Origin: Escherichia phage JeanPiccard
Direction: 5' to 3' (one strand)
Sequence record: MZ501080
DNA: 47,149 nt
Numbering within the stretch: position 1 is the stretch's first letter; the number at the start of each line of letters is the position of its first letter. The position numbers and the translations under genes were made by a program. Under the pieces are notes generated by a model that searched no databases, was not told the origin of the DNA, and saw nothing but the letters and a program-made list of their open reading frames with translations. This document shows, piece after piece, positions 20,961 to 46,155 of the stretch.

Positions 20961-20978
20961 TTTAGCAATTCGTGCTAT
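20961..20978 (-). promoter_or_regulatory. dyad motif (minus orientation, copy d) overlapping methyltransferase stop codon
   Basis: TTTAGCAATTCGTGCTAT is the reverse complement of ATAGCACGAATTGCTAAA. Confidence 0.4.
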
Positions 20979-21651
20979 TTGCAATGAAAACCGCCCTTGC
21001 GAATCCTCTCGGTGTAAGACTGCGGACTACCTTCGTTTTCTTACTCTTACCGCCTAGCTTCTTGTATTGGTCTGAGAATCCGTCATTAACAGGCACGGGA
21101 ATAGCATCAGGCCATTTAAACCCATTGCCAGACCAAATACATGTCTTCTTAGGATATGCGTCGCGAGGCTTTATTAGGTCGCTAAAAAACGGGTGTAAAT
21201 CATCTTCCGGCAAATAGCCTCCGTATTCGTAAGGGTGGAAAGTGTTATCAGGCTTTCGCCAAAGTGATGAAAGTACGCTTATCGGGTTCTCAATCATGTA
21301 TGGCACTTGGTACTTATTAGCCAGGTTAAAGGCAACTTTACACGCTTCAGCAGCTTCAATTTGGAAATTGGGGTTAGCAAGGCGCTTGCGCTCAAAGTGT
21401 CTTGACCCGCTCACCGCTAAATCCGTACAGGGCGGGAATGCCAAAATGAAATCAGGCTTCACATTAAAATCGAAGTCAGCATCTATCCATGCGTTAACAT
21501 AGGTGATGTTGTGATGCTCAACCTTTGCATTTAAGTCACCGTAGCTCCCATGGTCAGAATCATCAAAGTTGAAACAGTAGCAAGTGTGACCAGCTTCAGC
21601 CCAATCTTTCACCGCAAGACCAGAGCCATCAAATAAAGACCAGATAACCAT
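20962..21651 (-). CDS. DNA C5-cytosine methyltransferase (short Dcm-like)
   Basis: motif I-like LFDGSG, PC motif FPPCTDLAVSG, ENV-like MIENPIS. Confidence 0.65.
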   Translation of the reverse strand: MVIWSLFDGSGLAVKDWAEAGHTCYCFNFDDSDHGSYGDLNAKVEHHNITYVNAWIDADFDFNVKPDFILAFPPCTDLAVSGSRHFERKRLANPNFQIEAAEACKVAFNLANKYQVPYMIENPISVLSSLWRKPDNTFHPYEYGGYLPEDDLHPFFSDLIKPRDAYPKKTCIWSGNGFKWPDAIPVPVNDGFSDQYKKLGGKSKKTKVVRSLTPRGFARAVFIANSTNC

Positions 21652-22034
21652 TTTACAATCCTCTCTCGTTGTTTGTGCGACTAACTATACCAGGTTTTGC
21701 GTCTGAGTTTTAGCTATTCGTGCTATTGCATACACGTAACAGATGTAACTTGATGTATACAATCTAATCCGCGGAAAATGATATACGCCAAGTTACGCAT
21801 GGTTACGCTATATTTACATTAAAATATCTATATATATCAACCATTTACTCTTATTATTATTATTATATATATTACTGTGTATATCATGTAACTACCTCTA
21901 TAGAGTGTTCCGGTTGCAATTTTAATATCATGTGGATTTATACAGTGTTGCACGGTGCTATACCAATGCACCCTCAGCAATAAATGATATACACGATATA
22001 CACACTAGTTACATTGAGCTATAGCTGATCTGAG
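21652..22034. promoter_or_regulatory. AT-rich divergent control region 1 (iteron-like repeats; candidate early promoters or origin)
   Basis: no ORFs; (ATT)n tract, GATATACAC tandem repeat, GTAAC/GTTAC and GTATAC repeats, TACACGTAAC; about 75 bp homologous to 40887..40960. Confidence 0.45.
21708..21726 (-). promoter_or_regulatory. dyad motif (minus orientation, copy e) upstream of methyltransferase gene
   Basis: TTTAGCTATTCGTGCTAT; followed on minus strand by TATAGT and leader before ATG 21651. Confidence 0.4.
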
Positions 22035-22379
22035 GTGCCAGAAAACGTAACTAGTGGCAATGCATACATGGAATTACAAGAATTCACACGTAAACTTAAT
22101 AAATTGATAGGCACAAACGATTGGATTCCAGCAAGCCACGCGGATATAGTTAACCCATCGAAAGCAAGCAACCAAATAGATACGAAAATGGGAAAGAAAA
22201 TAGATAGATACTCAGCTCACACCGTAATACTACCCAGCTATGCTCCGGTTTTTATTGGTGTAACTTACGAAGTGGCTCTTAGATTATGCGAGTCATCATA
22301 TGGTAAAGACTGGAAAAACAAATCAATTAGAATAGAGAAGACAACTAGAGAACATATCAAAATCATCGCGGGGGTATAA
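22035..22379 (+). CDS. hypothetical protein (start uncertain)
   Basis: 114-aa ORF with GTG start and no clear RBS; in-frame ATG at 22068. Confidence 0.35.
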   Translation: MPENVTSGNAYMELQEFTRKLNKLIGTNDWIPASHADIVNPSKASNQIDTKMGKKIDRYSAHTVILPSYAPVFIGVTYEVALRLCESSYGKDWKNKSIRIEKTTREHIKIIAGV

Positions 22380-22380
22380 A

Positions 22381-22575
22381 ATGACTTACTACATTATCAA
22401 AGAGAAAAACAACGCGTTGTTCGGAGACTGCTACTTTGGCGGCCCAGCTGGATACACCACAGATAAGAACGAGGCCGACAGATTCGAGACTAAAGAAGAG
22501 GCTAGAGATGTACTGACCGGGTACTTCACTGAAGAAGATTTGAAGTCTGTTAAAGTTGTTAAAGTGAAGGAATAG
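22381..22575 (+). CDS. hypothetical protein
   Basis: 64 aa ORF tightly packed before nuclease gene. Confidence 0.45.
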   Translation: MTYYIIKEKNNALFGDCYFGGPAGYTTDKNEADRFETKEEARDVLTGYFTEEDLKSVKVVKVKE

Positions 22576-28162: not shown

Positions 28163-29084
28163 AGTCTAGTAATTCGCTTGCTTTATATATTCTCTTCCTT
28201 ATGCCTGACTTGAAAAAATTATCATCATTTGGGATTACAACATCAAGATTGCGATCATCAGCAACAGCGAGTAAATCAAAAGCGTGGCGAGTACAAGCGA
28301 TGCGTAACTTGTAGTTTCTAAGCGCGTAAGCAACCATTTCCATGTTGTAACTGGAGTGGCAAACAAGCACGCAGCGGTTGCCAGTAGCAATATTGACGCG
28401 AACACCATCAATCCAATTATCGACCAGATAAGCGTACTCATCATCCTTAAAGGAACCAATAACAGAAACAGATTGGCGAGTATAATCTTTTGCAGCATAA
28501 CTAACATTTCCCTCTTCATTGATAAACATTACATTGCACATTTCTTCTGATATACCTTCACTATAAGCCATAAAGCACGGTACTGCGTGGATTAGTTCGC
28601 CTGACTTTGCCCTGCCAACATCAAAACCGAACTCACTATAAATACCCTCGTATGTACTTAGCGGCGTTGATTCTACTCTTTCCGTCCTTTCCATTATCTC
28701 TAGGCATCTTTCGTGGTCAATCTGAGCGCCCATCTTGTAGAGCTGGGTTCTTGATGCTTGCTTATTTGCCTTATTAACAACTTCTACAGGGATAAGGTTT
28801 AGCCACTCACCGAGAACGTCGATACATTCACTGAATGACTGCCCTCTCATTTTTTGAACCCAGACAATTCCATCTCCCGAGCCGCACTGGTTGCAGATAA
28901 TTCCACCGTCACCATCTACACTAACCTTGTTTGTCCACCTTGCCCTATCGTGACCTCCACAATAAATACATGGCTGGTGCTTCTTGGTCTGGAAGAACTT
29001 TGGGTCAGCGCCGCAGATATTGATAAGCGCCTTATCCCACAGGCCGCGCATTCTGGGTAAAACCTCTTTCTTATCGTGGTGCAT
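28161..29084 (-). CDS. putative DNA primase (zinc-ribbon type)
   Basis: CxxC..CxxC zinc ribbon CIYCGGHDRARW...CNQCGSGDG resembling primase-helicase Zn-binding domains; adjacent to helicase. Confidence 0.6.
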   Translation of the reverse strand: MHHDKKEVLPRMRGLWDKALINICGADPKFFQTKKHQPCIYCGGHDRARWTNKVSVDGDGGIICNQCGSGDGIVWVQKMRGQSFSECIDVLGEWLNLIPVEVVNKANKQASRTQLYKMGAQIDHERCLEIMERTERVESTPLSTYEGIYSEFGFDVGRAKSGELIHAVPCFMAYSEGISEEMCNVMFINEEGNVSYAAKDYTRQSVSVIGSFKDDEYAYLVDNWIDGVRVNIATGNRCVLVCHSSYNMEMVAYALRNYKLRIACTRHAFDLLAVADDRNLDVVIPNDDNFFKSGIRKRIYKASELLD

Positions 29085-29142: not shown

Positions 29143-29616
29143 TTACTCTTTAGCTTTTCGTGCTGCTTCGTTGGCGGCCTTGATCTTGCGCCATGATCGA
29201 CACTCTGGCTTGGTGGCTAATTCAGCCTCAGTAACAACGCGCAGCATGTGACGTTTTTTGCATCGTAGTGTAAGCGGTTTTCCGTTACCGTCGAATTGCA
29301 GGTCCGGTCGACAGAATGTAGCGCGAAAACCTTCCCCAGTTCGTTTGTAGTAGTTATGCGACAGTTGAGCGCCACGTGCAGAAATCATACCACGCTTAAA
29401 CCATTCTTCCACGGCCTGAGGAGTTACCTTTAGCTGCTTTGCGATATTCGCCTTTGTGCCGAAGAAATCAAGTAGCATCTCAAGCCGCGCACGTAGCCCT
29501 GCCCTTACTTCATCTTTTAAAACGTAGTAGCCTGAAGGTCGTTTGCGCTTCTTTTTGTCTTCAGTGCGGACGGTTCCGTTATTCCCGTTAATGGTTCGCT
29601 TGTCTACTGCATTCAT
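29143..29616 (-). CDS. HTH DNA-binding protein (putative transcriptional regulator)
   Basis: helix-turn-helix-like segment ANIAKQLKVTPQAVEEWFKRG; basic termini. Confidence 0.55.
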   Translation of the reverse strand: MNAVDKRTINGNNGTVRTEDKKKRKRPSGYYVLKDEVRAGLRARLEMLLDFFGTKANIAKQLKVTPQAVEEWFKRGMISARGAQLSHNYYKRTGEGFRATFCRPDLQFDGNGKPLTLRCKKRHMLRVVTEAELATKPECRSWRKIKAANEAARKAKE

Positions 29617-29629
29617 TTCATCACCTCAA

Positions 29630-29648
29630 TAGCATTTTTTGTTAAAAG
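29630..29648 (+). promoter_or_regulatory. dyad motif TAGCATttttTGTTAAAAG (family copy h) in divergent intergenic region
   Basis: one mismatch from family consensus; upstream of helicase gene. Confidence 0.35.
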
Positions 29649-29717
29649 TCATTCTGGTTTAATGGTATTATTGTAATCAATTAAACGCTACAAGACAATT
29701 TTTATAGGAATTTAGAT

Positions 29718-31713: not shown

Positions 31714-32133
31714 ATGAAAATTACAGATAAGGTTGATTACATTGAGTTTTACCCAGGCCCTGTTAATTCATGCCCTAAAGAGGATGACGAACAAATCTTT
31801 TGCTCTGATTGGGTTAAGTATAACTATCCAGACATGGTGTTTTTCCACTGCGTGAATGAGGGTAAGAAAACAATTGGACAAGCAAGAAAAGACCAGGCTA
31901 AGGGTTTATTGAAGGGCGTATCTGACTGCATGTTTCTGATACCTGAATCTATCCGAGGCAAATACCCTTTCGGAGCCATAGAGCTAAAGAGGGCAGGAAA
32001 AACACAGGCAAGCCCAGTCAGTGACGAACAGAAGTCCTTCCTGAAAAGCGTAAGAGAATCAGGCGGCTTCGCGGCTGTAGCCTATGGTCGCGAGGGTTTT
32101 CTGGCAGCATTCAAAGAAATGATTTCAAAATAG
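31714..32133 (+). CDS. VRR-NUC domain nuclease
   Basis: 139 aa; segment GAIELKRAGKTQASPVSDEQKSFLKSV typical of VRR-NUC proteins; coupled to helicase. Confidence 0.6.
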   Translation: MKITDKVDYIEFYPGPVNSCPKEDDEQIFCSDWVKYNYPDMVFFHCVNEGKKTIGQARKDQAKGLLKGVSDCMFLIPESIRGKYPFGAIELKRAGKTQASPVSDEQKSFLKSVRESGGFAAVAYGREGFLAAFKEMISK

Positions 32134-32148
32134 CACGAATTGCTAAAG
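32131..32148 (+). promoter_or_regulatory. dyad motif TAGCACGAATTGCTAAAG (family copy i); TAG is the VRR-NUC stop
   Basis: exact 17-mer TAGCACGAATTGCTAAA shared with copies j, p, q. Confidence 0.45.
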
Positions 32149-32211
32149 GTATTTCGCAGGGATGCGATATAGTTACCCCATCGAAACGAAACACTAAAAG
32201 AGAGAAACAAA

Positions 32212-32415
32212 ATGGCCACTATCTACACCACTAAGAAATACATTTCACGTAAAACTGGTTACGAGTATAACCTGGTTCTTGATGACTCGCTCGGCATGCT
32301 TCTCGCTGACGCTGAAGATGCTGAATACTGCTTTGAAGTTAGCTCGACTTACAAAGATGATTTAGAAACTGTTAAAAACGTATTCGGCGAAAAATTTGAT
32401 GAGGTGTCAGAATGA
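32212..32415 (+). CDS. hypothetical small acidic protein (paralog A)
   Basis: 67 aa; C-terminal 23 aa identical to paralog B (YKDDLETVKNVFGEKFDEVSE). Confidence 0.55.
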   Translation: MATIYTTKKYISRKTGYEYNLVLDDSLGMLLADAEDAEYCFEVSSTYKDDLETVKNVFGEKFDEVSE

Positions 32416-32453
32416 GAGTGGTAGTTGTAAACTGGAAAACTGGAGAGGATTCA
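32347..32453 (+). repeat. 107-bp direct repeat, copy 1
   Basis: differs at 3 positions from 32658..32764. Confidence 0.85.
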
Positions 32454-32459
32454 AAATAG
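32412..32459 (+). pseudogene. truncated 5' remnant (15 codons) of small ORF duplicated at 32723..32881
   Basis: MRVVVVNWKTGEDS then premature TAG supplied by the dyad motif. Confidence 0.5.
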
Positions 32460-32474
32460 CACGAATTGCTAAAC
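32457..32474 (+). promoter_or_regulatory. dyad motif TAGCACGAATTGCTAAAC (family copy j)
   Basis: sits exactly at the junction where the duplicated segment ends. Confidence 0.45.
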
Positions 32475-32531
32475 TATGACGCATGGAAGCGTGTATTATC
32501 AACTCATCGAAAAGAAACTAGGAGAGAAAAA

Positions 32532-32726
32532 ATGAATACTATCTATACTGCTAAATTCTACGAATCACGCAAAACCGGTTACCAGTATGAATTAGTAATT
32601 ACAGATGACGGTTATTTTCTTGATGATGGTGAGGGGTACTCATTCGAAGTTAGCCCAACCTACAAGGATGATTTAGAGACTGTTAAAAACGTATTCGGCG
32701 AAAAATTTGATGAGGTGTCAGAATGA
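32532..32726 (+). CDS. hypothetical small acidic protein (paralog B)
   Basis: 64 aa from ATG 32532 (GGAGAG RBS); paralog of 32212..32415. Confidence 0.55.
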   Translation: MNTIYTAKFYESRKTGYQYELVITDDGYFLDDGEGYSFEVSPTYKDDLETVKNVFGEKFDEVSE

Positions 32727-32764
32727 GAGTGGTAGTTGTAAACTGGAAAACTGGAGAGGATTCA
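32658..32764 (+). repeat. 107-bp direct repeat, copy 2
   Basis: near-identical to 32347..32453. Confidence 0.85.
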
Positions 32765-32881
32765 GAATTCTTCTTCAATACATTCTCGCAATACATTGAT
32801 AAGTATGTTTTCGTTATTGATGGTGAGTGTGAGGTTGTTGTTCCTATTAAGCTAATTGATGGATTGGGAGTATCAGGATAA
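32723..32881 (+). CDS. hypothetical small protein (full-length copy of truncated ORF)
   Basis: 52 aa; ATGA overlap upstream and TAATG overlap downstream. Confidence 0.45.
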   Translation: MRVVVVNWKTGEDSEFFFNTFSQYIDKYVFVIDGECEVVVPIKLIDGLGVSG

Positions 32882-37009: not shown

Positions 37010-38593
37010 TCACCCCAGCAATCTCGGATTAATATAAACTTTATCACCAATCAGGCACGTATAGTTTTTCTCATCAAGCATTGGCAGTAAGTGATCTTTA
37101 ATCTTCGTCATCACCCCAGCCTGAGCCTCGAACGGCTTAACCTTGCGCGCTGCCTCATACAATGAACGAACACCAACAACTCCCTTACCGTTTTTGCCTT
37201 GCTTGATCAGGATATCAATAAGCTTATTCATCTCGGCATTGTCTCCAGCGTGACCCGCAGCGTTGGCAGATGATAGATACGTCTTGCTCAGCTCCTGGAA
37301 CATAATTACTGCCTCTTGCATGGTGTCTAGCTCAATCTCTCTTGACTTCTGTGGACTTCCACCGTTAGGGTTGAACCAGTTACGCACAGTGTGAAGAACC
37401 GCTGCAATCCTGATGGCCTGTTTATCGAACTTCCCCAACGCGCCGCGCAACATTGTGTGGGAATACTTACCGCCGTCAGCAAGGTGAGGTTCCATTTCCT
37501 GACGAGCGCGGTTTAGGTATTTCATTGCTGAATTACTCACTGTCAACTTTACTTCTTGCTCGTTCATTATTTCGTGAACCAATCGGAAGTAGTCAGCCTT
37601 CAACCCGCCATCAATTGGTTCATAAGTCGATTCGCCATTTTCATCAACGAATACACGCTCACCCAGGAATGACTTTTCACGAACCAAAAGGAAACGTTCA
37701 GATACACCGATACCGCGCGCACCAGCATTCATGATTGCGTTAATTGTTTCGTCTTGCGCAATTACAGAGATGCAGCCCATAGCAACGAAGCTCATGTTGT
37801 TCTCTGCGTTCGCACGGGCGATAGATACGTTACCAGCATCCCATGCTTTAAGCACAAGCTCGCTGTTCGTTTTCTTTGAGCCATCGCCATACGTCATGCC
37901 AAGAAGTGAATTCACGCTCGTTGCTTCATCCGAGATTACTGCGAAGTTTCCCTGGCGGTTGTTTATTCGGGCCAAGCCTTCAGGCGTAGTGTCTGATACG
38001 GGGAAAACGATATCGCAAAGTTTCTCGAGCTTCTCCTCTAAATCTTCTTTTTCCTCAAATAGTGAAGCCATCTCTGACGGAGATTTTTCCTGCTTCATCT
38101 CTTTGGATAATGCAGATAGTTTGGCCATGATCTTTTTACGCTCACGCTTTCGCACTTCATTCAGTCGCTCAGTCTCGGCAATCATTGGAGCAATTGAAAG
38201 TGAGTTAATAGCTGATTTACCAGTAGATGGTGGCTGGCTTGTTACGACGTAAAGCGACGTGGGCTGCTGAGTTCCGTGATACTCTACAGTGAATCGACCA
38301 AGCATAGCAGCGGAAATACACCCCAGGAAGTGCATGTAAGCTGAAGATTCAGGGAACTGAACCGAACGAGCAATGTTGGCTGACAGTTTACCAACAACAT
38401 CAATATCATTTCCTAGTGAGATTACAGGATACTTGTCATTGGCAGCGTCAATCTCTACTGGCGCCTTCCAGAATGATTGGGACTGTCGATAGCCATTAGC
38501 ATTGATGGCGACACGCAAAGGCGGGAGGTTGTCTGCGGCAGCGATTGCCATAACCTGTTCAACAGATAGTTTATCTTCGTTGAAATCAAACAT
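37010..38593 (-). CDS. P-loop NTPase (possible SF3-like helicase/ATPase)
   Basis: Walker A TSQPPSTGKS, Walker B FAVISDE; N- and C-terminal regions paralogous to 41779..42306. Confidence 0.65.
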   Translation of the reverse strand: MFDFNEDKLSVEQVMAIAAADNLPPLRVAINANGYRQSQSFWKAPVEIDAANDKYPVISLGNDIDVVGKLSANIARSVQFPESSAYMHFLGCISAAMLGRFTVEYHGTQQPTSLYVVTSQPPSTGKSAINSLSIAPMIAETERLNEVRKRERKKIMAKLSALSKEMKQEKSPSEMASLFEEKEDLEEKLEKLCDIVFPVSDTTPEGLARINNRQGNFAVISDEATSVNSLLGMTYGDGSKKTNSELVLKAWDAGNVSIARANAENNMSFVAMGCISVIAQDETINAIMNAGARGIGVSERFLLVREKSFLGERVFVDENGESTYEPIDGGLKADYFRLVHEIMNEQEVKLTVSNSAMKYLNRARQEMEPHLADGGKYSHTMLRGALGKFDKQAIRIAAVLHTVRNWFNPNGGSPQKSREIELDTMQEAVIMFQELSKTYLSSANAAGHAGDNAEMNKLIDILIKQGKNGKGVVGVRSLYEAARKVKPFEAQAGVMTKIKDHLLPMLDEKNYTCLIGDKVYINPRLLG

Positions 38594-40523: not shown

Positions 40524-41230
40524 TTATTTCTCCTTTCCTCTCGTTTCTAGGACTGAATCATAGCAACCAACCACTGATAGGTCATTAGCAAAAAGTGCTA
40601 TTCGTTAGATTTATGGATTGTTGCAGATATTGAAATTATTATCATGATTATTGCACATATAGCAATATTGCTTCAGATGCAATGATGTTTTTGATTGTTG
40701 CGGATTGAGCAATGAAGTGGTGGGGGAGTGAATGAAAGATGGATGGACTAACATACAAGTTGATTTTGACTCCCGATAACCTATCCTGTGGTATACACGT
40801 AACCGCCGTATACTCAGTGTCGTCACAAAAGTTAGTGGACACTAACCTACGTTTTTTACGCCAATATACACTCGATATACAATATAATATCTATATATAT
40901 CAACCTTTTACTTTATTATTATTATTATTATTATATATATGTATACCGTGTATACCGGTCATGGATGGAATAGTTGATATGTTCCGCGCAGATATTCTGA
41001 CACTTGTCAGAAAGGGATGACATTGTAGGAATAAAAAGGCACATATATAGGAAATATCCTCAAAAATCTGTACACAGTGGATACGGCAGGTTTACAACCA
41101 GTGCCGGAGCGGGCTTGAGAGGCAAAATGCGTATCCATGATAAAATATACTAAAATATACATTGACCGACACGTAAATAGGTGGCAATATAGCAATCACT
41201 GAAACGAAGTAAACCAAACGAGGTATTAAC
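40524..41230. promoter_or_regulatory. AT-rich divergent control region 2 (homologous to region 1)
   Basis: no credible ORFs; shares ATATCTATATATATCAACC(A/T)TTTACT(C/T)TTATTATTATT core, TACACGTAAC and GTATAC repeats with 21652..22034. Confidence 0.45.
40585..40601 (-). promoter_or_regulatory. dyad motif (minus orientation, copy o)
   Basis: TTAGCAAAAAGTGCTAT is the reverse complement of ATAGCACTTTTTGCTAA. Confidence 0.35.
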
Positions 41231-46077: not shown

Positions 46078-46155
46078 GCTCTGCTAGCTCAACAGGACAG
46101 CAGCAACGACCTTCTAAGTCGTAGGTTACTGGTTCGAATCCAGTGCGGAGCGCCA
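46078..46155 (+). tRNA. tRNA-Arg(TCT): tRNA-Arg (anticodon UCU), CCA encoded
   Basis: manual cloverleaf: acceptor GCTCTGC/GCGGAGC (one G-U pair), anticodon stem ACGAC/GTCGT with loop CTTCTAA, T-arm ACTGG-TTCGAAT-CCAGT, discriminator G, then CCA. Confidence 0.7.

What the first reader, a model, noticed from the sequence alone, without database searches (positions are those of the whole stretch)
21652..22034. AT-rich ORF-free control region 1 with iteron-like repeats between divergent transcription units
About 380 bp without credible ORFs between the minus-strand methyltransferase operon and the plus-strand recombination operon. It contains (TTA/ATT)n microsatellite-like tracts, a tandem GATATACAC-GATATACAC (21986-22003), repeated GTAAC/GTTAC pentamers, the palindrome GTATAC and TACACGTAAC (21732-21741). 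A 75-bp core is homologous to a second region at 40887-40960. Candidate bidirectional early promoter/operator cluster or replication origin.
Basis: seen in the sequence. Interest (0 to 1): 0.7.

Follow-up and report, generated by a model that had tools for sequence, protein, structure and literature searches.

The report
Candidate replication origin of T1-like phage
This non-coding gap of an Rtp/T1-like coliphage holds two outward-facing promoters at its edges. Between them lies a conserved array of short protein-binding words around the most easily melted DNA of the genome. The array is one of two such modules found in every T1-family phage examined, and it is the best candidate so far for the unmapped replication origin of these phages.

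Summary
The window is a complete-looking Rtp-like Drexlerviridae genome. The gap is larger than reported, 21652-22187, because the start of ORF 22035 is not conserved.

Anatomy:
- Left edge: a leftward promoter carrying the known family box ATAGCAC..TTGnTAAAA.
- Right edge: a rightward family-type promoter, TTGGAT-N18-TATAGTTAACCCATCGAAA.
- Centre, about 390 bp: 16 copies of a 6-nt word, [GT][TA]TAC[AG]. A base-composition model predicts 4.8.
- Four words stepped 10/10/11 bp run into a roughly 55-bp AT core. The core holds an IHF consensus, (TTA)5 and (TA)4, and two inverted words follow it.

The core matches a second module at 40867-40954 with 81% identity. These two places are the least stable duplex segments and the most word-dense segments of the genome.

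Among relatives the words are invariant while the spacers between them vary. T1, TLS, Webervirus and Hanrivervirus have the same two syntenic modules but with different words. That implies a co-evolving phage-encoded binding protein.

No RNA structure is supported, and promoter-like hexamers in the core are not conserved across the family.

My best reading is an iteron plus AT-rich origin-like module, resembling P4 ori/crr (about 0.45). The main rival is an operator array. No published T1-family origin was found in the papers I could search. Function is untested.

The parts
21684..21728 (-). Leftward promoter for the methyltransferase-like gene. On the minus strand the family box CAATAGCACGAATAGCTAAA lies at 21728-21709, then 19 nt, then TGG+TATAGT at 21692-21684. 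The box starts 77 nt before the ATG at 21651.
   Evidence: Searches list about 20 box copies in the window. The TLS paper PMC11447400 gives the same 21-nt consensus, placed about 76 nt upstream of start codons.
21729..21760 (.). Word cluster A: ATACAC/GTTACG overlapping (ATACACGTAAC), GTTACA at 21744-21749 on the minus strand, and the palindromic TGTATACA at 21753-21760.
   Evidence: Nearly invariant in 18 phages of two subfamilies. Word list.
21769..21779 (+). Conserved CCGCGGAAAAT element. Similar CCGGCGTAAAAT-like elements occur in the TLS and Hanrivervirus modules.
21782..21818 (+). Phased direct array of four words: TATACG at 21782, GTTACG at 21792, GTTACG at 21802 and TTTACA at 21813. 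The steps are 10, 10 and 11 bp.
   Evidence: Column identity is 0.98 within words and 0.72 in spacers across 18 phages.
21819..21875 (.). AT-rich core. It holds ATATCTATATATATCAACCATTTAC with the IHF consensus TATCAACCATTTA at 21835-21847, then (TTA)5 at 21851-21865 and (TA)4. It also contains the threshold sigma-70-like pair TTTACT (21844) - N18 - TATATT (21873).
   Evidence: Second least stable 60-bp window of the genome, z = 5.15. IHF pattern. Promoter scan.
21876..21895 (-). Two inverted words directly right of the core: TATACA at 21878-21883 and GTTACA at 21887-21892, both read on the minus strand, 9 bp apart. On the plus strand this reads TGTATATCATGTAAC.
   Evidence: Invariant in Braunvirinae and conserved in Rogunavirinae.
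21936..22094 (.). Distal word clusters: TATACA at 21939, tandem GATATACAC x2 at 21986-22003, GTTACA at 22008, the palindrome AGCTATAGCT at 22017-22026, GTTACG at 22046 (minus strand) and TTTACG at 22089 (minus strand).
   Evidence: Words are invariant and flanks vary in 14 Braunvirinae. No compensatory changes between the inverted copies.
22107..22187 (+). Rightward promoter and leader of the recombination operon: ATAGGCAC at 22107-22114, TTGGAT at 22121-22126, N18, TATAGT at 22145-22150, then TAACCCATCGAAA. The ATG of a 63-aa inserted ORF is at 22188.
   Evidence: The same -10 plus leader sequence occurs at five other box promoters in the window.
40855..40956 (+). Second copy of the module: TTTACG at 40855, TATACA at 40865 and TATACA at 40876 (steps 10 and 11). 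The core carries the IHF consensus at 40898-40910 and (TTA)7 at 40913-40933. Inverted TATACA words lie at 40940 and 40949.
   Evidence: This is the least stable 60-bp window of the genome, z = 5.5.

Best explanation
The gap is a composite of three parts.

**Edges (shown by sequence family membership).** Its two edges carry outward-facing promoters of the phage's own promoter family. These drive the methyltransferase/cor unit leftward and the recombination operon rightward.

**Centre (shown).** About 390 bp in the middle forms a conserved array of sites for a sequence-specific DNA-binding protein. It contains some 16 copies of a 6-7-nt word (TTACGC, TATACAC, GTTACA). Four of them are head-to-tail, one helical turn apart, and run into a roughly 55-bp AT-only core. 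Two more face back from the other side of the core. The core is one of the two most easily melted stretches of the genome and, in this subfamily, carries an IHF consensus. A second copy of the module lies at 40855-40956.

**Function (inferred).** The module is a replication origin, or one of a pair of cis-acting replication regions. In this model a phage-encoded protein coats the phased words on one face of the helix. IHF bends the core, and the (TTA)n(TA)n tract melts. The phage's MCM-like DUF3987 helicase and its P4-alpha-like zinc-ribbon primase then enter.

The binding protein is not identified. Candidates are the Cro-fold protein at 29146-29616, a domain of one of the two helicases, or a small early protein.
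For: **Word excess and density.**

**Phylogenetic footprint.** Words are invariant and spacers variable in 18 R1 copies and 10 R2 copies. TTACGC and ATACAC swap at the same position between lineages.

**Duplex stability.** The two cores are the two least stable 60-bp windows in the window and in Rtp, T1, TLS, Sd1, Msk, A110b, T145P1, Webervirus cp41 and Hanrivervirus C4. Their z-scores are 4.5-6.0, and the third-ranked window never exceeds 3.75.

**Synteny.** The modules always occupy the same two syntenic gaps. In TLS the R1-equivalent module is not between divergent genes.

**Lineage-specific words.**
- TLS uses TGTTCAC/GTGAACAG.
- T1 uses GATTAACAC x3, GTGTAACAG and ATTACGCC.
- Webervirus uses GGTAAGAT.
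- Hanrivervirus uses TGTTATC/GATAACG.

This points to a phage-encoded, co-evolving binder rather than a host factor.

**Flanking genes have their own promoters**.

**Core promoter-likeness is not conserved.** Sigma-70-like hexamer pairs in the core number 2-4 in Braunvirinae and Rogunavirinae but only 0-1 in the other four lineages, against about 1.1 expected.

**No RNA signal.** There is no Rfam hit, the folding z-score is -0.63 and the covariation term is +0.17.

**Annotated analogue.** The P4 record has ori and crr, two regions with 8-bp repeats stepped 9-11 bp in both orientations plus tandem 10-mers. The window's primase shares the P4 alpha zinc ribbon, 47% over 53 aa.

**Replication genes.** The phage has its own primase and an MCM-like helicase.

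**Literature.** Two papers state that no origin has been found in T1-like phages.
Against: - No experiment or dataset available here shows initiation, protein binding or melting.
- Neither module adjoins a replication gene. One sits upstream of the exonuclease VIII-Erf-SSB operon and the other next to the probable pac region.
- The constant position just upstream of the recombination operon would also suit a regulatory site.
- In this subfamily the core carries TTTACT-N18-TATATT with spacing conserved at 17-18 in most relatives. Related GenBank records annotate predicted promoters there.
- No homologue of a known origin-binding domain was found. The P4 alpha C-terminal domain has no sequence match, and the Cro-fold protein looks like an ordinary operator binder.
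- GC skew only tracks transcription direction.
Confidence: 0.45

Rival explanations
1. The central module is an operator array. A phage regulator, for example the Cro-fold protein at 29146-29616, coats the phased words. It thereby switches the promoters at the edges of the two gaps, and possibly a promoter inside the AT core. This would time expression of the recombination operon and the early clusters.
For: - Both modules sit at the head of gene clusters, and one is always directly upstream of exonuclease VIII.
- Braunvirinae and Rogunavirinae cores have threshold -35/-10 pairs, 2-4 against 1.1 expected. The TTTACT/TTTAGA-to-TATATT spacing is 17-18 in most relatives.
- Predicted promoters are annotated there in CEB_EC3a and AHP42.
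- The recognition helix of the Cro-fold protein differs between lineages that use different words, and is identical in the two subfamilies that share words.
Against: - Cro-type dimers bind inverted half-sites, whereas the arrays are head-to-tail at one-turn steps.
- No words occur at the regulator's own promoter gap, 29617-29717, or at the other roughly 20 promoters.
- Core promoter-likeness is absent in T1, TLS, Webervirus and Hanrivervirus.
- A 390-bp array with about 16 sites around a 55-bp AT-only tract is far more than known phage operators need.
- The (TTA)n length varies from 3 to 7 between copies.
Confidence: 0.3
2. The modules serve another DNA transaction. They could be an accessory site for terminase (pac enhancer), a recombination hot spot used by the adjacent exonuclease VIII/Erf system, or a site organising the injected DNA.
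For: - R2 lies about 200 bp from the probable pac repeats. The T1 record's terminal repeat starts in the homologous repeat.
- R1 is always next to the recombination genes.
- From my own knowledge, not tested here: the P1 pac site also has short hexamers on both sides of a central region, plus an IHF site.
Against: - R1 lacks the GATTGTTGC-type repeats of the pac region.
- No second packaging start in T1-like phages was seen in the papers read.
- Nothing in the sequence is specific to recombination.
Confidence: 0.12
3. The region encodes a small protein or a structured non-coding RNA, and the repeats are incidental.
For: Short ORFs exist at 21837-21980 (minus strand), 21932-22024 (plus strand) and 22035-22379 (plus strand). 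Several GenBank records annotate hypothetical proteins across the region.
Against: - Annotated starts differ between relatives, and the candidate start codons are not conserved.
- Conservation is in 6-7-nt blocks and not in codon periodicity.
- There is no Rfam family.
- The RNA fold z-score is -0.63 and the covariation term is +0.17. The inverted copies vary independently in their flanks.
Confidence: 0.03

Closest known systems
Satellite phage P4 ori and crr (bound by the alpha primase-helicase)
   Same: - Two separate cis regions share short repeats.
- The 8-bp repeats are stepped 9-11 bp, in direct and inverted orientation.
- A set of tandem 10-mers lies nearby, as annotated in NC_001609.
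- The window's primase shares the alpha zinc ribbon.
- The words of the relative TLS (TGTTCAC[AG], GTGAACAG) are almost the P4 repeat TGTTCACC.
   Different: - The words in this window are TTACGC/TATACAC, not TGTTCACC.
- No homologue of the alpha origin-binding domain was found.
- The helicase is MCM-like DUF3987 and is encoded separately.
- The modules are 19 kb apart.
- P4 lacks a long AT-only microsatellite core.
- Function here is untested.
Iteron-type origins: lambda ori, Bacillus phage SPP1 oriL/oriR, staphylococcal pathogenicity island (SaPI) ori (details from my own knowledge)
   Same: - Repeated initiator sites abut an AT-rich unwinding region.
- SPP1 has two origins sharing the same boxes in a pac-type siphovirus of similar size.
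- SaPI ori has two sets of short iterons flanking an AT-rich stretch.
   Different: - Lambda, SPP1 oriL and SaPI origins lie in or next to the initiator gene. These modules do not.
- Lambda and SPP1 iterons are 18-19 bp, whereas these words are 6-7 bp.
- No initiator has been identified here.
Drexlerviridae 21-nt repeat aaATAGCACnnnTTGnTAAAA (TLS reannotation, PMC11447400; probably the 'conserved inverted repeats' assigned to Rtp52 in the Rtp genome paper, recalled from its abstract only)
   Same: The left edge of the gap (21709-21728) is a copy. [quoted passage not shown]
   Different: This accounts for only about 45 bp of the gap. The central words are a different motif, confined to the two modules.

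Membership tests
Drexlerviridae ATAGCAC promoter-associated repeat | Match to aaATAGCACnnnTTGnTAAAA | tested here: met
   The minus-strand sequence CAATAGCACGAATAGCTAAA lies at 21728-21709. It differs from the commonest window form at 2 positions.
Drexlerviridae ATAGCAC promoter-associated repeat | Oriented with transcription, intergenic, about 76 nt upstream of a start codon, followed by a -10-like hexamer | tested here: met
   The box starts 77 nt before ATG 21651. TGGTATAGT follows 19 nt downstream of the box.
Iteron-type replication origin | Several copies of a short repeat, phased with the helix, conserved in relatives | tested here: met
   Steps are 10/10/11 bp. Word identity is 0.98 against 0.72 for spacers. 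There are 16 words against 4.8 expected.
Iteron-type replication origin | Adjacent AT-rich region of low duplex stability | tested here: met
   The two cores are the two least stable 60-bp windows in all 10 genomes examined.
Iteron-type replication origin | Located in or next to the initiator or replication genes | tested here: not met
   The neighbours are a methyltransferase-like gene and the exonuclease VIII operon (R1), and small early genes plus the probable pac region (R2). Primase and helicases lie at 28-31 kb and 37-38.6 kb.
Iteron-type replication origin | Initiator binds the repeats; replication starts there | not testable with these tools
   This needs footprinting or ChIP, and marker-frequency analysis or 2D gels.
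P4 ori/crr | Type 1 repeat TGTTCACC | tested here: not met
   The window's words are [GT][TA]TAC[AG]. Only the relative TLS has TGTTCAC-type words.
P4 ori/crr | Alpha-type protein with a C-terminal origin-binding domain | tested here: not met
   By BLASTP only the N-terminal zinc ribbon of alpha matches the window's primase. There is no match to the helicase or the Cro-fold protein. A fold-level comparison with the alpha domain was not done.
Sigma-70 promoter inside the AT core | -35 and -10 hexamers with a 16-18 bp spacer | tested here: inconclusive
   TTTACT-N18-TATATT scores 9 of 12, the scan threshold. Such pairs are 2-4 against 1.1 expected in Braunvirinae and Rogunavirinae, but 0-1 in four other lineages. 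TSS mapping is needed.
T1-type pac site | Repeats of the GTGATTGTTGC type at the position of the T1 genome end | tested here: not met
   These repeats are present at 40615, 40645 and 40692 in the second gap, but absent from 21652-22187.
Structured non-coding RNA | Rfam match or conserved structure with covariation | tested here: not met

The most novel reading that the evidence does not exclude
The two modules are the long-sought replication origins of T1-family phages. They would be a pair of cis-acting regions, like P4 ori plus crr or SPP1 oriL plus oriR. Arrays of 6-7-nt words, whose sequence has diverged in step with a phage-encoded initiator in each subfamily, would flank a microsatellite-like unwinding element and load an MCM-like phage helicase.
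Probability: 0.4. Interest if true: 0.65.

Novelty: new member of a known kind. Interest (0 to 1): 0.55.

Why it matters
T1 is one of the seven classical T phages, and Drexlerviridae are common laboratory and fermentation contaminants and therapy candidates. Even so, the two papers found here that searched for an origin report none. One of them states that no iteron-like repeats occur anywhere in the TLS genome.

This analysis gives exact coordinates for two candidate sites in each of ten genomes, together with the words to mutate. That makes the question directly testable. The lineage-specific words would also give a handle for identifying the initiator. They could explain replication incompatibility or cross-talk between co-infecting T1-like phages.

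If the rival reading is right instead, the same sites define the main timing switch of these phages.

Tried and rejected
- **Exact dyad search.** A search for a recurring palindromic operator found only terminators.
- **DnaA boxes.** ATATACACA is one mismatch from TTATNCACA, but relatives have ...ACACG, so it is not conserved.
- **LexA box.** TACTGT is present at 21873, but no CAG half-site lies at the required spacing.
- **RNA.** Rfam gave only a tRNA elsewhere. RNAalifold and fold z-scores were negative.
- **Copies outside phages.** The module has no match in 5,426 E. coli genomes or 72,556 plasmids.
- **IMG/VR.** The scans added few relatives.
- **Unavailable papers.** The Rtp genome paper could not be read, and the T1 genome paper was not among the papers I could search. 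I cannot exclude that either mentions these AT-rich regions.
- **Literature searches.** Searches for T1-family transcript maps, origins, DUF3987 origins and the P4 iteron found nothing relevant.
- **Identifying the binder.**
  - The Cro-fold protein has a lineage-variable recognition helix, but so does the helicase's winged helix, so the comparison does not discriminate.
  - Its fold is an ordinary Cro.
  - There is no PDB sequence match.
- **GC skew.** It only follows gene orientation.

Full report
**Context.**

The window is a complete-looking 47-kb genome of an Rtp-like coliphage (Drexlerviridae, Braunvirinae). Its closest records are A110b, BEK3, Rtp, IME542 and the vB_EcoS-12210I group.

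The finding lies between two units. One is a minus-strand unit holding an rtp44-like membrane protein, a Cor-type lipoprotein and an extra methyltransferase-like gene at 20962-21651. The other is the plus-strand exonuclease VIII-Dam-Erf-SSB operon.

**Observation.**

The similarity to the second region is real. 21804-21883 matches 40867-40954 at 80.7% over 88 columns. The E-value is 1e-15 in a whole-genome self comparison, and this is the second best internal repeat of the genome.

The gap is larger than reported. ATG 22068 reads CACGG in relatives. The start codons that other records annotate upstream are not conserved. Homology with Rtp continues to 22190, where the window has a 193-bp insertion carrying its own 63-aa ORF (ATG 22188). 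The conserved 64-aa gene follows at 22381. The non-coding region is therefore 21652-22187.

**Edges: two promoters of the phage's own family.**

A 20-nt box at 21709-21728 reads CAATAGCACGAATAGCTAAA on the minus strand. It is one of about 20 copies in the window of the repeat aaATAGCACnnnTTGnTAAAA. That repeat was described for TLS and is said to occur also in T1, Rtp and Rogue1. TGGTATAGT follows it 19 nt downstream, and the box starts 77 nt before the methyltransferase ATG.

At the right edge lies TTGGAT-N18-TATAGTTAACCCATCGAAA (22121-22163). The -10 plus leader sequence is the same as at five other box promoters in the window. The second gap is built the same way. It has a box at 40584-40603 pointing left, and TTGACC-N17-CAATAT at 41163 pointing right. 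Transcription of the flanking genes therefore does not need the central repeats.

**Centre: a word array around an AT core.**

The repeated unit is a 6-7-nt word, [GT][TA]TAC[AG] (TTACGC, TATACAC, GTTACA).

- **Count.** There are 16 copies in 21729-22100 against 4.8 +/- 2.1 in Markov simulations of the region itself (0 of 5000). The second region has 13 against 4.8.
- **Density.** The genome mean is 0.85 per 200 bp. R1 has 10 and R2 has 8, the two densest places in the genome.
- **Layout.** Four words at 21782, 21792, 21802 and 21813 (steps 10, 10, 11) run into a core at 21819-21875. The core is nearly all A/T. It holds TATCAACCATTTA, a perfect IHF consensus, then (TTA)5(TA)4. Two inverted words (TGTATATC, TGTAAC) follow the core.
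- **Distal sites.** Further words lie at 21729-21760 and 21936-22094, including the tandem GATATACAC pair.
- **Second copy.** R2 repeats this layout, with three words stepped 10 and 11, the same IHF consensus, (TTA)7 and two inverted TGTATAC words.
- **Stability.** By nearest-neighbour stability, the R2 and R1 cores are the two least stable 60-bp windows of the genome, at z = 5.5 and 5.15. The next is 3.2.

The IHF pattern itself is weak evidence. It has 10 matches genome-wide against 3.2 expected.

**Relatives.**

I aligned R1 from 18 phages of two subfamilies, the right part of R1 from 14 Braunvirinae, and R2 from 10 phages. All show a footprint pattern. Words are invariant or nearly so, with column identity 0.98. 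The spacers between them vary, at 0.72.

In R2, TTACGC and ATACAC replace each other at the same position in different lineages, so they are one class of site. Inverted copies such as CTAGTTAC...GTAACTAG change their flanks independently, so no hairpin is being maintained. The (TTA)n tract varies from 3 to 7 units.

R1 and R2 do not evolve in concert. Sd1 has a window-like R2 but a Rogunavirinae-type R1.

**Family-wide picture.**

I examined Rtp, T1, TLS, Sd1, Msk, A110b, T145P1, Webervirus cp41 and Hanrivervirus C4. In each, the two least stable windows (z = 4.5-6.0, third window at most 3.75) fall in the same two syntenic gaps. One is directly upstream of exonuclease VIII. The other lies between the early cluster containing the DUF3987 helicase and the early cluster leading to terS.

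The layout is conserved but the words are not:
- T1 uses GTGTAACAG, ATTACGCC x2 and a tandem GATTAACAC x3.
- TLS uses TGTTCAC/GTGAACAG/TGGAACA.
- Webervirus uses GGTAAGAT/ATCTTACC.
- Hanrivervirus uses TGTTATC/GATAACG.

Several of these phages infect E. coli, so differing words argue for a phage-encoded binder that co-evolves with its sites, not a host factor. In TLS the R1-equivalent module is not between divergent genes. Divergent transcription is therefore not what maintains the module.

**What the centre is not.**

- **Not an RNA.** There is no Rfam hit in the region. The RNA fold z-score is -0.63 and the covariation term is +0.17.
- **Not coding.** No short ORF in the region is conserved.
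- **Not found outside phages.** There are no matches in E. coli genomes or plasmids.
- **Not pac.** The pac-like repeats (TGATTGTTGC x3 and ATTGCAAT-type palindromes at 40600-40720) are a separate part of R2. They are homologous to the position where the T1 record's terminal repeat begins, and they are absent from R1.

**Promoter in the core?**

TTTACT-N18-TATATT (21844-21873) is a threshold match. TTTACT/TTTAGA with a 17-18-nt spacer recurs in most Braunvirinae and Rogunavirinae. Two GenBank records annotate predicted promoters there.

However, such hexamer pairs occur only 0-1 times in the T1, TLS, Webervirus and Hanrivervirus cores, which is the chance level. A promoter may exist in this subfamily, but it is not the conserved property of the module.

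**Mechanism.**

The conserved properties are these:
- head-to-tail short sites one helical turn apart;
- converging arrays on both sides of the least stable DNA;
- further site clusters 100-250 bp away;
- two copies per genome;
- lineage-specific words.

These are the properties of iteron-type origins. The closest annotated analogue I could inspect is P4. Its ori and crr are two cis regions carrying 8-bp repeats stepped 9-11 bp in both orientations, plus three tandem 10-mers. The window's primase shares the P4 alpha zinc ribbon, and the TLS words are nearly the P4 repeat.

Membership fails on other points. The words differ in this window. No alpha-type origin-binding domain was found by sequence. 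The helicase is a separate DUF3987 protein. Its confident model (pLDDT 89.7) resembles MCM subunits (Foldseek E = 3e-6, TM about 0.35) and ends in a winged helix.

The only obvious site-specific binder conserved in the family is the protein at 29146-29616. It has an all-alpha Cro fold, resembling Xfaso 1 and N15 Cro. Its recognition helix varies between lineages, in parallel with the words:
- TPQAVEEW in the three phages that share words;
- SNQTVQGW in T1;
- NLKTVWGW in TLS;
- SIQVVQQW in Webervirus;
- SQQTVNQW in Hanrivervirus.

The helicase's winged helix also varies, and a Cro dimer would be expected on inverted repeats such as the ATAGCAC box. The binder is therefore unassigned.

**Weighing.**

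| Reading | Weight |
|---|---|
| Origin-like function | about 0.45 |
| Operator array controlling the edge promoters | about 0.30 |
| Another DNA transaction (packaging accessory, recombination site) | about 0.12 |
| Coding or RNA | about 0.03 |

The main points against an origin are the lack of an adjacent replication gene and the constant position upstream of the recombination operon. The main points against an operator are the head-to-tail geometry, the size of the array, and the absence of words at any other promoter, including the regulator's own.

**Novelty.**

The ATAGCAC box is known. I found no description of the two word/AT-core modules. Two papers on T1-like phages report no origin, and one of them states that no iteron-like repeats exist in TLS. 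The Rtp genome paper could not be read and the T1 genome paper was not found, so prior mention cannot be excluded. The kind of element is well known. This would be a new member of that kind, with exact coordinates that make the question testable.

Noticed in passing
window 20961-20980 and 21709-21728 (and about 18 other places): The ATAGCAC..TTGCTAAA box ends 19-20 nt before the TATAGT-like -10. It therefore spans about -52 to -33, and its inverted repeat TAGCA-N5-TGCTA is centred near -42. That is the position of a class II activator site and not of a -35 hexamer. The box is invariant across subfamilies, although the Cro-fold protein's recognition helix is not.
   Followed up: partly
window 20962-21651 (minus strand): The methyltransferase-like gene (PHROG 757, no Pfam hit) is bracketed by two promoter boxes and is absent at this position in Rtp. 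BEK3 and CEB_EC3a carry a Roi-like DNA-binding gene here. Rogunavirinae carry a Rha/anti-repressor gene on the other side of the module, and DTL carries an HNH gene. Both flanks of the module are an insertion hot spot.
   Followed up: partly
window 22188-22379: A 193-bp insertion relative to Rtp carries a 63-aa orphan ORF with no PHROG match. The long ORF 22035-22379 is this gene plus a fortuitous upstream extension.
   Followed up: yes
window 40600-40720: This is a very highly conserved non-coding stretch with TGATTGTTGC/GATTATTGC repeats and the palindromes ATTGCAAT and GCAATATTGC. Position 1 of the T1 record, the start of its 2.8-kb terminal repeat, falls in the homologous GTGATT|GTTGC repeat. 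This is the probable pac site.
   Followed up: partly
window 37013-38593 (minus strand): The model of the DUF3987 helicase (pLDDT 89.7) resembles MCM2-7 subunits (Foldseek E = 3e-6, TM about 0.35). It ends in a winged-helix domain at residues 451-521. T1-family phages thus appear to use an MCM-like replicative helicase.
   Followed up: partly
L063 (TLS) 28755-29015 and 120-440: The TLS module words TGTTCAC[AG] and GTGAACAG are almost identical to the P4 type 1 origin repeat TGTTCACC, although no alpha-type binding domain was detected by sequence. The TLS paper states that no iteron-like repeats exist in that genome.
   Followed up: partly
window 32124-32457 and 32450-32768: This is a tandem duplication at 77% identity. 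Each copy starts with an ATAGCAC box promoter followed by a small gene.
   Followed up: no
window 46078-46152: A tRNA gene (Rfam tRNA, 55.5 bits), as in related phages that carry tRNA-Arg.
   Followed up: no
L054 (MG065688) and L066 (MG065657): Records named 'Campylobacter phage' A110b and C4 are Drexlerviridae genomes closely related to coliphages. Both are UNVERIFIED records, and the host label is doubtful.
   Followed up: no
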